Source: Chloroflexota bacterium (GTDB taxonomy: Bacteria; Chloroflexota; Dehalococcoidia; Lucifugimonadales; UBA3495). From it: a stretch of 51,617 nucleotides of DNA. Of this stretch, positions 12,001 through 16,788 are shown in pieces (position 1 is the stretch's first letter; every line of letters begins with the position of its first letter). The position numbers are program-made. The DNA is taken from assembly GCA_027623675.1 (NCBI GenBank), contig JAQBVF010000026.1:1-51617 (forward strand). The letters are read 5' to 3'.

Positions 12001-15000
12001 ACATGCTCTGCTTCCAATCTTCGAGTACCTGGCCGCGCTTGCCGGCGTAGGGCCCCACCCCCAACGGACCTCCGACGTGGTTCAAGATGATGGTCACGCC
12101 GGGAAAGGCGTTGGCCAGGTCGGCCAGTCCCGCCAGTTGGGTGTGATACAGATAGGCATCGAAGCTCAAGCCCATCCGGCCCAGCACGGCGAACCCCTCC
12201 CGGAACTTGGTGTCGGCCAGCAGGTTTTCGAGGAATGGGCGGGGGCGGGGTACATCGGGACTGGGGTCGGAAGCCGAGATGTGACGGACGCCACGGAACC
12301 GGCCGCTGGCCGCCTGATGCGCCTCCAACACGGGTGTCACGGCATCACCCAGGGTCAGGTCGGCGAACCCCACGATCCCCGCCGCCACCTTGGTGTCCCC
12401 ATACTGGCCGCTGTTGCTCTGGGCCACGATGCCCTGGACGAATTCGGTCTCGCCCAGGGACTTCATCTCCTCCGGACCGTCTTTCCGGTACATCGACTGG
12501 CATTCAATGAATACGGTCTGCACCACGTTGTGGCCGCCGCTCAGGTCCAGCAGCAGGTCGTCCAGGAAATAGCGGTTTCCGGGCCGGTCCCAGAAATGAT
12601 GATGGGGGTCGCAGATCGGAATCTCCGGCTCAAGGGCATCTTCTATCGTCAGGTCCAGCCATCTTCTGTGTTCAGCGGTCATGGTTGCTCCTAAACAGCC
12701 TCCGGCGAGTGGGGCCAGGCTTAAATTAGCACTTTCCGCCGGCAACCGCCACGTGGCCCTCGGTTGAAGACCCAAAGATGGCCCGATGGACCGGCCGCAG
12801 GCGTGGGCACAGTGCTTGAATATGCTCTGATTCCTGGCGGCCCGGCAGCCTCGATAATTCGACCCGCAACAGTTACAATATTGCACGTTACCGCACCATT
12901 AATCAGAGCCGATCTCTTCCCCAGCCAGGGAGGTTAATATGACCACCACCAAGCGCGACAAGAGTCTGATCGTAATTCAACTCACCGGCGGCAATGACTA
13001 CCTGAACACCGTCGTTCCCTACGGCGAGGGACGGTATTACGACTCCCGTTCCACGGTCAACATCCCACAAGACCGGGTCATACCCCTCGACGGCAAAGTC
13101 GGGTTCAATCCCAGCATGGGGGCCATGAAGTCGTTGTGGGATGAGGGCAAGGTTGCCGTGATCAACGGCATCGGCTACCAGACGCCCAACCGCTCCCATT
13201 TCCGGTCCATGGACATCTGGCACACCGCCGAGCCCGACGCCATCGGGAAGGAAGGCTGGCTGGGCCGGGCCATCAGAGACTTCGACCCGGGGGGCGAGAA
13301 CGTGCTCACCGGCATCAACTTTGGCCGCGGCCTGCCCCGGTCGCTGGCCTGCCAGGGCGTGTCGGTTGCGTCGGTGGGCGATCTGGCGACCTACGGCCTG
13401 TTCCCAGACGTAGAGGACGAAGAATTGCGAATGTTCACCCTGGAGGCTTTCGCCCGGATGTACGGCAACACCGCCGGACGGGACCCGGTGCTTAACTTCC
13501 TGGGGCAGACCGGTCAGGACGCGCTCCACGGGGCCGACATCCTCCGCACCGCTCCCGCCATGTACTCGTCATCGGTGGAATACGCGCCAAACTCTCTGGC
13601 CCAGAACGTGAAGAGCATCTCCCAGGTATTCCATGCCGGCCTGGGCGCCAGGGTCCTGTACACCACCCACGCCAGCTTCGACACCCATTCGGGCGAGCTG
13701 CCCACCCACGCCAAGCTGTGGGACGAGGTGTCGGGGGCTGTCGGCTGCCTGATGGACGACCTGAAGGAGCACGGCCGCGAAGATGACGCCGCCATCCTGA
13801 TCTTCTCCGAGTTCGGCCGGCGCATCAAGGACAACGGCTCGGGCAGCGACCACGGCTCGGGCGGCGTTGCGTTCCTCATCGGCGGCGCGGTCGAAGGCGG
13901 CATGTACGGCGAATACCCTTCGCTGGCCGAAGCCGAACAACTGGAAGGCGACCTGCGGTCGAACAACGACTTCCGCTCGGTGTACACCGACATCCTTGAG
14001 GACTGGTGGGGCTTGGACGCCGCGCCCATCGTTAATGGACAGTTCGAGAAACTAAACGTCTTCCGTTCTTAACCCGTTCCAATCTCAGCCAGCAAGCCAA
14101 CCCGATTCATGACGAGGTCAGTGATGATAAGCAACGACACCGCATTGATGGCCCACCTGCTGCGGCGAGCCGGATTTGGCGCCAGCCGTGACGAATTGGA
14201 AAAGTACCTGGCAATGGGCTACGACGGCGCCGTGGAGACGCTGCTCAACCCGTCCGACCCTGGCAACATGCCCGACGACCTGATCCGCCGTTACCATGTG
14301 GAGCAGTCGGAACTGCGCGACCTCGCCGGTTCCGCCGCCTACTGGATGTACCGCATGATCAGCACCACCTCTCCCATGGAGGAGAAGATCGCCCTCTTCT
14401 GGCACAGCCTGTTCGCCACCGGATACGCCAAGCTCAACCAGGCGCGCTCCCTGCTCAACCAGGTGGACATGTTCCGACGGTCCGGTCTCGAAAACTTCCA
14501 GGACCTTCTGCTGGAGCTCTCTAGAGACCCAGCGATGATCCTTTGGCTGGACAACAACGAGAACCACGGCACGGCGGTCAACGAGAACTATGGCCGGGAG
14601 CTTCTAGAGCTGTTCTCCATGGGCATCGGCAACTACAGCGAGGACGACGTCAAGGAGTGCGCCCGGGCCTTCACCGGCTGGACGCTGGGCAACGCCGAAT
14701 ACATGGCCATCCGGGCCGCCAAGGACTCCATCTGGCCCTATGGCCGGATCGCTTGGCACTTCGAGTACCGGGACGAGGACCACGACGGCGGCGAAAAGAC
14801 GTTCTTGGGAGAGACCGGCCGGTTCAACGGCGAAGATATCATCGCAATCATCGTCAAGCAGGAGTCCACGGCCCGGTTCCTGGCCACCCGGCTCTTCGAG
14901 TTCTTCGCCGCCGATAAGGTGACCGAAGCGGGTGAGAAGGTTATCGGCGAGATGATGGCAACCTATTTCTCGTCGGGATACCAGGTACGGGACATGCTGC

Positions 15001-16788
15001 GCACACTGTTCCACTCCGATTATTTCAGGTCGGAGGAAGCCCGGTTCGCCCGGGTGAAGGGGCCCGCCGAGATGGTGGTCGGCGCCATCCGCATGGCTGG
15101 CAACTACCAGAACCCGGCCTTGGGCATCGAGAAAGTCTCCAACGCCATGCTCTACATGGGCCAGGGCCTGCTGCAGCCGCCTTCAGTGGAAGGCTGGCAC
15201 GAGGGTCTGGAATGGATCAACAGCGGCGCGTTGGTCGAGCGGGTCAACTTCGCCGCCAAGGAACTGTCCAACGTCAAAAGCCCCGGCGTCAGGTCCATCA
15301 TCGACCGGCTGGAGGCTGGTTCTAAAAACGGCGTCATCGAGCCAACGGACCTGGCCGACCGCTGCCTGGACCTGCTCGGCCCCATCCAGGTATCCGAAGA
15401 CACACGGTCGGTGCTGGTGGACTACGCCACACGCCAGGGCGACCTGCACCTGGCCGGGCATCAACCTGGCGACGAGGCCGAGCAACGTGTCGGTAACATG
15501 CTCCGGTTGGTCGCGGCGACCAAAGAGTACCAACTCGCCTAGACCCGCCATATCGATTCCAGCAAAGGGGGCGGCTTGAGCACCCAGACACAGTCACCCA
15601 GTATCGCCCTGGACTACGTTAAGACCATTGGCATCGTGAACAACGGCCTGAATGGCCGCGGGTTCGCCAACCCCTACGACACGGCGGTGGACAGCGACGG
15701 CAATATCTATGTGCTGAACCGCTGCGACCCGGCCCGGGCCTCGGCCATCCGGGTGGGAGTCTGCAATCTGGACGAGGAATACCTGCGCGAGTTCGGCCGG
15801 GGCAACGGCTCGGGCGACGGGCAATTCATCTGGGTGGTGGCCATGGCTTTGGGGAGCGGCAATCGCCTGTTCATCACCGACGAATACAACCACCGGGTAA
15901 CCGTCTACGACACCGGTGGGAATTACCTGTCCCATTGGGGCGTCGCCGGGTCGGGAGACGGCGAACTGAATGGCCCCGCGGGCATCGCCATCGACTCCAC
16001 GGGCAGCGTTATCGTGGTTGACCAGCACAACTCCAGGGTCCAGAAGTTCACCGACGACGGCAAGTTCATCGCCGCTTGGGGCTCTTTCGGCAGCGGCGAG
16101 GGCCAATTCAACTTGCCCTGGGGCGTCGCCGTCGACGGCCAAGACAACGTCTACGTCTGCGATTGGCGGAACGACCGCATCCAGAAATTCAGCAACGACG
16201 GCGAGTTTCTGGCCGCTTACGGGGAGCCGGGTTACGGCGAAGGACAGTTCCAACGGCCAACCGGAGTTGCCGTCGACCCTGAGGGCTTCATCTACGTGGC
16301 CGATTGGGGCAACGAAAGGGTGCAGGTGCTGGGTCCCGACGGCGGCTTCCAGTTGCTGCTGCATGGCGAGGCCACGGTTTCCAAATGGGCCGAGGACTAT
16401 TTCGCCTCCAACCCGGAGGAGAAGGCCGAGCGGGATAGCGCCAACCTCAAACCCGACCTGCCTTCTCACCTGAACACGCCCTATCACGTCTCCTCCCAGA
16501 CCGAACCGTATTTCTGGGGGCCTGTGTCGGTCACCCTGGACAGCCAGGGCCGACTGTACGTGGCCGAGACCAACCGCCACCGATTGCAGGTCTACCGGAA
16601 ACGCTAGCCATGCCCTAACGGGCATTCCCCTTAGGATCCGAACTTTGGTCAGCCTGATAGGAGCCTGAGCCATGAGAGCCGTTGTCTACAAGGGACCCTT
16701 CGAAGTCGCGGTGGAGACCGTCCCCGACCCGAAGATCCTCCACCCCAACGACGTGATCGTGAAGATCACCTCAAGCTGCATCTGCGGG

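What a model noticed while it worked through the whole genome (the two positions that open the first line are those of the whole stretch)
12939..16607. Ten cytoplasmic DUF1800-DUF1501-NHL gene triads: a predicted heterodimeric hydrolase system expanded in SAR202-type bact [...]
The genome carries nine complete paralogous three-gene cassettes of a DUF1800 protein (~470 aa), a DUF1501 protein (~378 aa) and an NHL-repeat propeller (~340 aa) (e.g. g00708-g00710), a tenth with DUF1800 and NHL only, and a lone DUF1501, all without signal peptides. I read DUF1800 and DUF1501 as the two subunits of one cytoplasmic enzyme (DUF1501 being the alkaline-phosphatase/sulfatase-superfamily catalytic part) that in this order has recruited an NHL propeller, and the expansion as an overlooked catabolic enzyme family for refractory organic matter. 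New would be a first structural handle on two of the commonest domains of unknown function of bacteria and a lineage-specific third partner [...]
Evidence so far: Cassettes: C5:145031-148795, C8:1898-5689, C10:115569-119328, C11:12939-16607, C11:27468-31105, C16:8912-12695, C17:55067-58831, C27:10789-14554, C33:55243-58873, plus C47:129403-132040 (DUF1800+NHL) and lone DUF1501 g00439. N-termini start MTSTKKDPVLVV.. (DUF1501) and ..IALMAHLMRRAGFGA (DUF1800): no Tat/Sec-like signal in 30 of 30 proteins read. Tables: DUF1800 next to DUF1501 in 42773 of 44812 genomes that have both; NHL next to DUF1501 in 1268 genomes of all, 556 of them in this order (72% of its 773). Complex prediction g00708+g00709: ipSAE 0.86 in 3 of 3 runs, best of 3 controls 0.00, partner pLDDT 86-87, runs share at least 55% of contacts; the mark was reached by 51 of 78 solved compl [...]
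(Added by a program. Inside this text positions count along the whole contig: contig position 1 is position 1 of the stretch shown here. "Call 12" and the like, gene names such as g00115 and contig names such as C1 are that model's own, and its searches are not shown. The text may have been shortened before it was handed on; [...] marks where a part breaks off. The agent that wrote the report below was given it as the finding of a first reader that could run no searches.)

Follow-up and report, generated by a model that had tools for sequence, protein, structure and literature searches.

The report
Leaderless DUF1501-DUF1800-NHL gene triads, expanded
A deep-ocean SAR202-type bacterium carries about ten diverged copies of a three-gene module that looks like a cytoplasmic version of a very common but uncharacterised exported two-protein system, with an added propeller protein predicted to dock onto one partner.

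Summary
The window has two cassettes (12939-16607 and 27462-31105). The 3.07 Mb genome has 10 DUF1501 genes, 10 DUF1800 genes and 11 NHL genes of one family. They form 9 triads, one DUF1800+NHL pair, one lone DUF1501 and one orphan NHL.

- **Location:** SAR202-type DUF1501 has no twin-arginine leader (0 of 57). Other Chloroflexota DUF1501 has one in 17 of 19.
- **DUF1501:** the model (pLDDT 90) has the alkaline-phosphatase-superfamily fold. It is closest to NPP/PafA-type phosphodiesterases (Z 20), not formylglycine sulfatases.
- **DUF1800:** the model is confident (pLDDT 93), helical, and found no solved relative.
- **NHL:** my one complex job tested DUF1800+NHL. The score was 0.86 and the best control 0.22; 116 of 157 solved complexes and 2 of 215 mismatched pairs reached the mark. 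The predicted interface uses a DUF1800 loop present in 75 of 75 NHL-linked proteins and 0 of 23 leader-type ones.
- **Duplication:** triads duplicated as whole units (Mantel r 0.71-0.83).
- **Spread:** 23 of 41 sampled genomes of the order carry DUF1800, with up to 16 copies.

Substrate and chemistry remain unknown. The link to refractory organic matter is untested. I did not re-run the DUF1800-DUF1501 complex.

The parts
12851..12879 (+). sigma-70-like promoter match about 60 nt upstream of cassette A
   Evidence: TCGATA-17-TACAAT, 9 of 12. This was 1 site found against a mean of 1.0 in shuffles, so only its position is suggestive.
12939..14072 (+). DUF1501 protein, 377 aa, leaderless; alkaline-phosphatase-superfamily fold; candidate nucleophile S86 and candidate metal ligands D20, D248/H250, D304/H305
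   Evidence: PF07394, 88 bits; invariant in 76 sequences; pLDDT 90.3; Z 20.0 to Xac NPP; no RR motif.
14124..15542 (+). DUF1800 protein, 472 aa (longest ORF starts at 14109); helical, no solved fold relative found; loop 200-208 lies in the predicted NHL interface
   Evidence: PF08811, 333 bits; orthologs are 472 aa; pLDDT 92.9; 49, 55; 74.
15576..16607 (+). six-bladed NHL propeller, 343 aa, TTG start, with a conserved insert (about residues 258-315) between the last blades
   Evidence: NHL, 152.8 bits; 12; 26; 70; insert residues 266-315 in the predicted interface.
27361..27389 (+). sigma-70-like promoter match about 73 nt upstream of cassette B
   Evidence: TTGACA-17-TACGAT, 10 of 12. This was one of 2 sites found against a mean of 1.1 in shuffles.
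27462..28871 (+). DUF1800 protein of cassette B, 469 aa
   Evidence: (PF08811, 319.7 bits).
28904..30055 (+). DUF1501 protein of cassette B, 383 aa, leaderless
   Evidence: (PF07394, 76.7 bits).
30107..31105 (+). NHL propeller of cassette B, 332 aa
   Evidence: (NHL, 140.3 bits).

Best explanation
Each cassette encodes a self-contained cytoplasmic three-protein module. It derives from the widespread two-gene DUF1800/DUF1501 system, which is normally exported through a twin-arginine leader on DUF1501. DUF1501 is the catalytic part: an alkaline-phosphatase-superfamily protein of the NPP/PafA type that transfers a phosphoryl or sulfuryl-like group via an invariant serine (S86) at a metal site (inferred). 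DUF1800 is its obligatory helical partner, of a fold not found among solved structures and distantly similar to the PSD1/PSD2 partner domains of planctomycete DUF1501 modules. It probably caps or shapes the substrate site (inferred). In the SAR202-type order the pair lost the leader, DUF1800 gained a short loop, and an NHL propeller with a family-specific insert was recruited that docks onto that loop (predicted). The whole module then duplicated repeatedly, to 8-16 copies in many genomes. The diverged copies most likely serve different imported substrates (inferred; substrate unknown).
For: Composition and copy number. Leader loss: 0 of 57 SAR202-type against 17 of 19 other Chloroflexota DUF1501 have an RR motif, with a median of 16 against 57.5 residues before the GGxD motif. 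Canonical Tat motifs occur in Thermus, Chondrinema and Miltoncostaea. No membrane-like segment occurs in any of the 30 proteins. DUF1501 fold: pLDDT 90.3; 194 Foldseek matches at E<=0.001, all listed ones alkaline-phosphatase-superfamily members; Z 20.0, 241 aligned residues, rmsd 3.0 to Xac NPP; ENPP1/3 and autotaxin 17-19; PafA 18.2; choline sulfatase 16.7. D20, S86, H87, D248, H250, E291, D304 and H305 are invariant in 76 sequences. They sit after strand 9-15, at the start of helix 87-96, after strand 239-244 and after strand 293-295. Pairing of DUF1800 with DUF1501: adjacent and co-oriented in 28 of 30 other-Chloroflexota loci; Mantel r 0.83, p 5e-5, among the nine own triads. In leader-type pairs only DUF1501 has the signal in the six loci with a complete DUF1800 N-terminus, as in Chondrinema and Miltoncostaea. 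That pattern fits co-export of a folded complex. NHL: all three genes lie within 5 kb in 67 of 80 related loci, in three different gene orders that follow clades. Mantel r is 0.71 and 0.76. Complex prediction for DUF1800+NHL: score 0.86 (runs 0.86, 0.87, 0.83), best of 3 controls 0.22. The mark was reached by 116 of 157 solved complexes and 2 of 215 mismatched pairs. Runs share at least 70% of contacts and partner pLDDT is at least 91. No solved DUF1800 structure exists for the model to recall. The central interface loop (DUF1800 202-210) is present in 75 of 75 NHL-linked DUF1800 and is a gap in 23 of 23 leader-type ones. Order-wide expansion: 23 of 41 genomes, 1-16 copies, 11 with 8 or more.
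Against: No activity, substrate, metal or expression datum exists; no RNA run was listed. I could not inspect model coordinates, so I have not shown that the invariant residues cluster into one site. The only sequence-level alignment to an NPP-family protein is weak (hhalign probability 1.6). It puts E291-F-G-R, not D304-H305, opposite the NPP 'SDHG', so ligand equivalences are uncertain. I did not re-run the DUF1800-DUF1501 complex; the ternary job exceeds the 1000-residue limit. The loop/NHL correlation is confounded with phylogeny, because all NHL-linked proteins form one clade. Adjacent genes duplicate together whatever their function, so the Mantel result shows unit duplication and not binding. 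A conserved lone-DUF1501 clade (own C6 with L057, L073, L087), DUF1800+NHL pairs without DUF1501 (C47) and an orphan NHL show that the three are not always encoded together. Flanking genes give no pathway hint.
Confidence: 0.55

Rival explanations
1. The NHL protein is not a subunit. It is a separate enzyme or binding protein acting in the same pathway (for example a lactonase- or lyase-like propeller), kept next to the pair only for co-expression.
For: Pfam SGL (56.6 bits, over its cut-off 26.3) and sub-threshold Vgb_lyase and Phytase-like hits. An orphan NHL of the same family has no DUF1800 nearby. Neighbours can pass complex prediction (7 of 44 blind neighbours, per the tool text).
Against: No invariant His or Cys occurs among the 10 paralogs or the 55 family members; the invariant residues are repeat-structural Gly, Asp, Pro, Asn, Arg and Gln. 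The complex prediction scored 0.86 against a best control of 0.22; 116 of 157 solved and 2 of 215 mismatched pairs reached the mark. The family-specific insert and the DUF1800-specific loop form the predicted interface. SGL and Vgb hits are expected cross-hits between six-bladed propeller families.
Confidence: 0.15
2. The module is not a hydrolase. DUF1501 is a binding, regulatory or redox-linked protein on an alkaline-phosphatase scaffold, as proposed for planctomycete DUF1501 modules with cytochrome-like partners.
For: Kamneva et al. 2012 (PMC3542564; passages read) link DUF1501 to PSCyt/PSD1 partners and propose electron transport, sometimes with a WD40 propeller partner. DUF1800 members give sub-threshold PSD2 (31 of 72) and PSD1 (10 of 72) matches. 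DUF1800 itself has many invariant His, Asp and Glu residues and could carry a site of its own.
Against: No CxxCH motif occurs in any of the 30 proteins. A nucleophile-position serine and Asp/His dyads are invariant across 76 sequences from SAR202-type and other Chloroflexota. That is the signature of active members of the superfamily.
Confidence: 0.15
3. The proteins are still exported, either by hitch-hiking on another signal-bearing protein or by an unrecognised route, so the module works outside the cytoplasm as in other phyla.
For: The ancestral system is Tat-exported, and DUF1800 is apparently carried without a signal of its own.
Against: None of the three proteins in any of the 10 loci has a leader or a hydrophobic segment. 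The open frame upstream of the DUF1501 starts is too short for a leader: 377-401 codons of open frame for 375-383 aa proteins in the nine triads. No signal-bearing gene is a recurrent neighbour.
Confidence: 0.05

Closest known systems
Canonical DUF1800/DUF1501 gene pair (Pfam PF08811 + PF07394), Tat-exported, function unknown
   Same: Same two families, over the Pfam cut-offs. Adjacent and co-oriented. The same invariant residues occur in DUF1501 across SAR202-type and other Chloroflexota. The pair was noted as one predicted operon in PMC5122149 (passages read).
   Different: No twin-arginine leader (0 of 57 against 17 of 19). An extra loop in DUF1800. A third gene, NHL. 8-16 copies per genome instead of the 1-2 typical in the phylum sample. 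Variable gene order.
Nucleotide pyrophosphatase/phosphodiesterases (Xac NPP, ENPP1/3, autotaxin) and PafA-type alkaline phosphatases
   Same: Best structural matches of the DUF1501 model: Z 20.0 to 17, about 240 aligned residues, rmsd 3.0-3.5. A Ser at the position where these enzymes have a Thr/Ser nucleophile, plus Asp/His dyads (placement inferred; the NPP residue roles are recalled).
   Different: Sequence identity is 13-17%. There is no Pfam Phosphodiest membership (1 of 76 at E 0.022) and hhalign probability is 1.6. These enzymes work without a DUF1800-like partner.
Type I (formylglycine) sulfatases, e.g. choline sulfatase
   Same: Top Foldseek matches (E 2e-6); Z 16.7. Weak Pfam Sulfatase hits in 14 of 76.
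   Different: The C/S-x-P/A-x-R formylglycine motif is absent in 10 of 10 paralogs; the motif here is (R)-S-H-F-R. Structural scores are lower than for NPP/PafA.
Planctomycete/Verrucomicrobia DUF1501 modules with PSCyt/PSD1 partners (Kamneva et al. 2012, PMC3542564)
   Same: DUF1501 plus a large partner protein. Many diverged copies per genome. Sometimes a beta-propeller (WD40) accessory. DUF1800 shows sub-threshold PSD1/PSD2 similarity.
   Different: Those modules carry signals and cytochrome c motifs. Here there is no signal and no CxxCH, the partner is DUF1800 and the propeller is NHL.
NHL propellers of TRIM71/Brat/Thin, PknD sensor domain and peptidylglycine amidating lyase
   Same: Six NHL blades; phmmer E 1e-64 to 1e-13.
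   Different: A stand-alone bacterial protein with a conserved insert of about 55 residues between the last blades. No invariant His, so it is not a PAL-type zinc site.

Membership tests
Pfam DUF1501 (PF07394) | score over the curated cut-off (27 bits) | tested here: met
   88.0 and 76.7 bits in the window; 10 matches over the cut-off in the genome.
Pfam DUF1800 (PF08811) | score over the curated cut-off (26.1 bits), full-length match | tested here: met
   333 and 319.7 bits, profile 1-419; 10 in the genome.
NHL repeat propeller (PF01436) | several NHL repeats over the cut-off | tested here: met
   152.8 and 140.3 bits, 4-5 repeats called; PDB NHL domains at E 1e-64.
Alkaline phosphatase superfamily | the superfamily's alpha/beta core fold | tested here: met
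   Model pLDDT 90.3. 194 Foldseek matches at E<=0.001; the listed ones are sulfatases, LtaS, EptC and YejM. Z up to 20.0.
Alkaline phosphatase superfamily | nucleophile at a helix N-terminus plus Asp/His metal ligands clustered in one site | tested here: inconclusive
   D20, S86, D248, H250, D304 and H305 are invariant in 76 sequences and lie at the expected secondary-structure positions. Coordinates could not be inspected, and the one sequence alignment is weak.
Type I sulfatase (formylglycine) | C/S-x-P/A-x-R motif at the nucleophile | tested here: not met
   0 of 10 paralogs.
NPP / Phosphodiest (PF01663) | sequence membership (Pfam score) | tested here: not met
   1 of 76 at E 0.022, below the cut-off. 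hhalign against the genome's own PF01663 protein gives probability 1.6. The fold likeness stands.
Tat-exported substrate | twin-arginine motif and h-region ahead of the mature domain | tested here: not met
   0 of 57 SAR202-type, with 14-24 residues before GGxD; 17 of 19 other Chloroflexota have it.
PVC DUF1501-PSCyt/PSD1 module | partner with a cytochrome c CxxCH motif and PSD1 domain | tested here: not met
   CxxCH in 0 of 30 proteins. PSD1 and PSD2 match only below their cut-offs (10 and 31 of 72).
Metal-dependent propeller enzymes (PAL-type lyase) | conserved His ligands for zinc | tested here: not met
   No invariant or nearly invariant His among 10 or 55 family members. The PAL ligand set is recalled, not checked.
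DUF1800-DUF1501 heterodimer | physical contact of the two proteins | not tested
My single complex job went to DUF1800+NHL. There is indirect support only.

The most novel reading that the evidence does not exclude
A three-subunit cytoplasmic enzyme of a new architecture. It would combine an NPP-like two-metal catalytic subunit, a helical subunit of an unsolved fold shared by one of the commonest bacterial DUF families, and an NHL propeller whose ligand face is plugged by a lineage-specific loop of the helical subunit. Multiplied 8-16 times per genome, it would be a major unrecognised route by which one of the most abundant deep-ocean bacterial groups processes imported organic phosphorus or sulfur esters.
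Probability: 0.3. Interest if true: 0.8.

Novelty: new variant of a known kind. Interest (0 to 1): 0.65.

Why it matters
DUF1800 and DUF1501 are very common and still have no assigned function. The DUF1800 profile found 19038 cluster representatives at E<=0.001. Only 12 papers in the searched library hold DUF1501 and 6 hold DUF1800, none with a function.

The SAR202-type version is soluble, has no leader, and comes as compact three-gene units. That should make it easier to express and reconstitute than the exported forms, and it offers ten natural variants per genome for specificity mapping.

For SAR202 biology it adds a paralog expansion of 1.2% of the genome, present in 23 of 41 sampled genomes of the order. 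I found no paper holding both DUF1501 and SAR202, or both SAR202 and 'NHL repeat'. Supplementary tables of SAR202 papers were not searched.

Tried and rejected
- **Sequence search of solved structures.** Nothing was found for DUF1501 or DUF1800 as single sequences. The DUF1501 profile gave only a chance stathmin hit at E 0.6.
- **DUF1800 fold searches.** Foldseek found 0 matches at E<=0.001. The search without Foldseek gave best Z 6.7, covering only residues 382-471 (EF-hand-like four helices), and 0 chains at Z>=8. That is below the tool's own bar for helical proteins, so no family is assigned. The core was not folded and searched domain by domain.
- **ESM Atlas for DUF1800.** Best score 0.87, unnamed clusters only.
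- **NCBIfam.** No family for DUF1501 or DUF1800. The NHL matches ScyF only far below its cut-off (173.7 against 350 bits), so it is not ScyF.
- **Expression.** No RNA holder was listed, and read laying was not used.
- **Flanking genes.** Among 75 ORFs around the nine other loci there is no recurrent neighbour, so there is no pathway hint.
- **Promoter and terminator scans.** Counts were at chance level; only the placement upstream of both cassettes is suggestive.
- **hhalign of the DUF1501 profile to the genome's own NPP-family protein.** Probability 1.6.
- **'Split triad' idea.** I considered whether C6 (lone DUF1501) and C47 (DUF1800+NHL) form a triad working in trans. The tree shows that lone DUF1501 is a conserved arrangement, but I did not test the pairing.
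- **First motif regex.** It was too strict; it was replaced.

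
Full report
**1. Observation**

The window holds two same-strand three-gene cassettes.
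- Cassette A: DUF1501 12939-14072, DUF1800 14109/14124-15542, NHL 15576-16607.
- Cassette B: DUF1800 27462-28871, DUF1501 28904-30055, NHL 30107-31105.

All six proteins pass the Pfam cut-offs by wide margins. NCBIfam has no family for the first two.

The whole genome is 3.07 Mb in 48 contigs, 91.4% complete and 5.7% contaminated. It has 10 PF07394 and 10 PF08811 matches, none with stops.
- nine triads (C5, C8, C10, C11a, C11b, C16, C17, C27, C33);
- a DUF1800+NHL pair on C47;
- a lone DUF1501 on C6.

Intergenic gaps within triads are 2-154 nt, and the eleven loci take 37.4 kb, 1.2% of the genome. Paralogs are 37-72% identical, so these are old duplicates and not assembly or binning artefacts.

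- Gene order is DUF1800-DUF1501-NHL in seven triads and DUF1501-DUF1800-NHL in two.
- An eleventh NHL of the same family stands alone at C5:109073-110155.

Close orthologs (84-92% identical) are named by their sources as SAR202 cluster, Chloroflexi or Dehalococcoidia.

**2. Location**

I aligned 57 SAR202-type DUF1501 proteins: 10 own plus 47 non-redundant ones from the 80 related loci.
- In these, 14-24 residues (median 16) precede the GGxD motif that follows the first strand. None has an RR motif.
- In 19 DUF1501 proteins from other Chloroflexota classes, 37-101 residues (median 57.5) precede it. 17 have an RR motif (examples).
- Plasmid-borne examples from Thermus, Chondrinema and Miltoncostaea also show classic twin-arginine leaders.
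- The open frames upstream of the triad genes are too short to hide a leader (377-401 codons).
- No 19-residue window in any of the 30 own proteins exceeds a Kyte-Doolittle mean of 1.49.

I therefore accept the cytoplasmic reading, as an inference from sequence.

A by-product concerns the leader-type pairs. The DUF1800 partner starts within about 33 residues of its first conserved motif and has no hydrophobic stretch. This holds in the six loci with a complete N-terminus, and in Chondrinema and Miltoncostaea. One signal for two proteins fits export of a folded complex and supports a DUF1800-DUF1501 complex. It is not universal: among 93 full-length DUF1800 representatives, 17 have a prefix over 45 residues long, 10 of them hydrophobic (11 of the 93 are hydrophobic in all), some with an RR motif.

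**3. DUF1501**

With a 76-row alignment the model reaches pLDDT 90.3 and pTM 0.90.
- Foldseek finds 194 solved chains at E<=0.001. The listed ones are sulfatases, LtaS, EptC and YejM.
- The second-look aligner ranks Xac NPP first (Z 20.0, 241 residues, rmsd 3.0, 17% identity). ENPP1/3, autotaxin and ENPP5-7 follow at Z 17-19, PafA and SPAP alkaline phosphatases at 17-18, and choline sulfatase at 16.7.
- Sequence methods see almost nothing. No PDB hit appears even with the profile. Weak Pfam Sulfatase matches occur in 14 of 76 and Phosphodiest in 1 of 76.

D20, S86, H87, D248, H250, E291, R294, R295, D304 and H305 are invariant across all 76 sequences. In the model's secondary structure they follow strand 9-15, open helix 87-96, follow strand 239-244 and follow strand 293-295. 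Members of this superfamily place their metal ligands and nucleophile at such positions (that placement rule is my own knowledge).

The formylglycine motif is absent in 10 of 10. So the protein works like a Ser/Thr-nucleophile, probably two-metal, member of the superfamily. It is not a member of the sulfatase or NPP families by sequence.

I could not inspect coordinates. The one hhalign alignment to the genome's own NPP-family protein is weak and suggests a different equivalence for one ligand pair. Residue roles therefore stay candidate.

**4. DUF1800**

A profile search of 1.84 billion representatives found 19038 relatives at E<=0.001. With a 72-row alignment the model reaches pLDDT 92.9 and pTM 0.93. 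It is mostly helical.
- Foldseek against the PDB gives no match at E<=0.001.
- The search without Foldseek, over 48161 chains, gives a best Z of 6.7. This covers only the last 90 residues, an EF-hand-like four-helix arrangement, and no chain reaches Z 8. By the tool's own guidance this does not establish any relationship. It also does not prove a new fold.
- Sub-threshold but recurrent Pfam matches to PSD2/DUF1585 (31 of 72, best E 7e-5) and PSD1/DUF1553 (10 of 72) tie DUF1800 to known partners. These are the partner proteins of planctomycete and verrucomicrobial DUF1501 modules described by Kamneva et al. 2012 (PMC3542564, passages read).

**5. The NHL protein**

It is a six-bladed NHL propeller with a conserved insert of about 55 residues before the last blade. 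S269, W271, N279, R286, E310 and F313 in the insert are nearly invariant in 55 sequences. No His or Cys is invariant, which argues against a zinc-lyase-type site.

Four lines tie it to the module.
- **(a) Co-location.** In 80 related Dehalococcoidia/SAR202 loci, 67 have all three genes within 5 kb, 12 have DUF1501 alone and 1 has DUF1501+DUF1800. These were the best 80 of at least 594 matching stretches.
- **(b) Gene order.** The three genes occur in three orders (21, 21 and 16 loci, plus variants with extra copies). The orders follow clades of the DUF1501 tree. Order changed while composition was kept.
- **(c) Co-duplication.** Within this one genome the pairwise distance matrices of the nine triads correlate. 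DUF1501-DUF1800 gives r 0.83 (p 5e-5), DUF1800-NHL r 0.76 (p 3.5e-4) and DUF1501-NHL r 0.71 (p 5e-4). The same subgroups (C8/C10; C16/C17/C27) appear in all three families.
  - The score was 0.86 (runs 0.86, 0.87, 0.83) and the best of 3 controls 0.22.
  - The mark was reached by 116 of 157 solved complexes and 2 of 215 mismatched pairs. These counts hold only roughly because my own alignments were used.
  - Runs share at least 70% of contacts, and partner pLDDT is at least 91.
  - No solved structure resembles DUF1800, so the pass cannot come from memory of a like complex.

The interface has two sides.
- **NHL side:** loops of several blades plus insert residues 266-315.
- **DUF1800 side:** residues 47-65, 108-120, 131-134, 189-214 and 333-336, with the lowest-error contacts at 205-207.

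That loop ((I/V)P..P(Y/F..)(G/S)x) is present in all 75 NHL-linked DUF1800 proteins examined: 63 match P.G[RK], and the other 12 are close variants. It is a gap in all 23 leader-type Chloroflexota DUF1800 proteins. None of the ten universally invariant DUF1800 residues lies in the interface list. The conserved surface is therefore left free, presumably for DUF1501 (inference).

Caveats:
- The loop/NHL association is confounded with phylogeny.
- A model's confidence is not a measurement of binding.

**6. Spread**

- In a sample of one genome per family of the same order, 23 of 41 have DUF1800 at E<=1e-20, with 1-16 copies. Eleven genomes have 8 or more, including closed or near-closed ones.
- In 201 genomes across the phylum, 101 have DUF1501, mostly 1-2 copies. 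This tally includes two genomes flagged unpublished, G038 and G173, one match each. No other claim rests on them.
- In 28 of the 30 loci fetched from those other Chloroflexota, DUF1800 sits directly upstream of DUF1501. No NHL gene lies in the 1.3 kb or so available downstream. The other two loci are contig-end fragments where I called no ORF.

**7. What remains open**

Nothing here indicates a substrate. The 75 flanking ORFs of the other nine loci mix two kinds of genes, with no recurrent partner:
- housekeeping genes (tRNA synthetases, L9/DnaB, IDH/MDH);
- varied catabolic or transport genes (amidohydrolases, acyl-CoA dehydrogenases, MFS transporters near three cassettes, luciferase-like monooxygenases).

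No RNA run was listed.

Lone DUF1501 genes form conserved clades, and DUF1800+NHL pairs occur without DUF1501 (C47). Either the parts can work in trans or they have partial functions.

**8. Literature**

- Both DUF names together appear in 2 papers. One (PMC5122149, passages read) notes the predicted operon and the Tat motif.
- DUF1501 appears in 12 papers and DUF1800 in 6, none giving a function.
- DUF1501 with SAR202 gives 0 papers, and SAR202 with 'NHL repeat' gives 0.
- The term DUF1501 was not found in the main text of PMC5615132.
- Supplements of SAR202 papers were not searched and may list these families.

**9. Verdict**

This is a real, order-wide, leaderless three-gene variant of a known but uncharacterised two-gene system. 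It has a well-supported fold assignment for the catalytic part, a confident model without solved relatives for the second part, and a predicted docking mode for the third that has a sequence correlate. It is a new variant of a known kind, and the function is still unknown.

Noticed in passing
window 16672-18852: Directly downstream of cassette A, on the same strand, lie a zinc-type alcohol dehydrogenase (16672-17823; ADH_N 89 bits) and a second, different NHL-like protein (17848-18852; NHL 52 bits). The latter has weak similarity to peptidylglycine amidating lyase, 3fvz, at E 1e-6.
   Followed up: partly
L123:6074-7156 (-) = G000 C5:109073-110155: An orphan NHL protein (360 aa) of the same family as the triad NHLs (hhalign E 1e-99, 45% identity, insert present). 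No DUF1800 or DUF1501 lies nearby; its neighbours include a hemerythrin-domain protein.
   Followed up: partly
L006:4486-5031 (-) = G000 C17:54485-55030: A FUR-family regulator gene lies 36 nt downstream of the NHL gene of the C17 triad, on the same strand. This was seen at only one of the nine other loci, but it hints at metal-dependent control.
   Followed up: no
L006:2133-3215 (+) = G000 C17:52132-53214: A protein with a CAP12/Pycsar-type TIR effector domain (PF10137, E 3e-16), a likely anti-phage defence gene, lies about 2 kb from the C17 triad.
   Followed up: no
L124:5347-7158 (+) = G000 C29:38846-40657: A 603-aa protein made of about twelve NHL repeats (NHL 319.8 bits), unrelated in context to the triads.
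   Followed up: no
L090:1000-3005 (Thermus thermophilus plasmid NZ_LR027520.1): The DUF1800 gene next to a Tat-type DUF1501 is split by an IS982 transposase insertion.
   Followed up: no
G220:C1:575572-576960 and G236:C59:7906-9309: Two DUF1800 matches in related genomes carry one in-frame stop each (TAG, TGA). They may be pseudogenes among the paralogs.
   Followed up: no
L002:7327-8097 (-) = G000 C6:54326-55096: A phage-integrase-family fragment lies about 1 kb upstream of the lone DUF1501 on C6, near the contig end.
   Followed up: no
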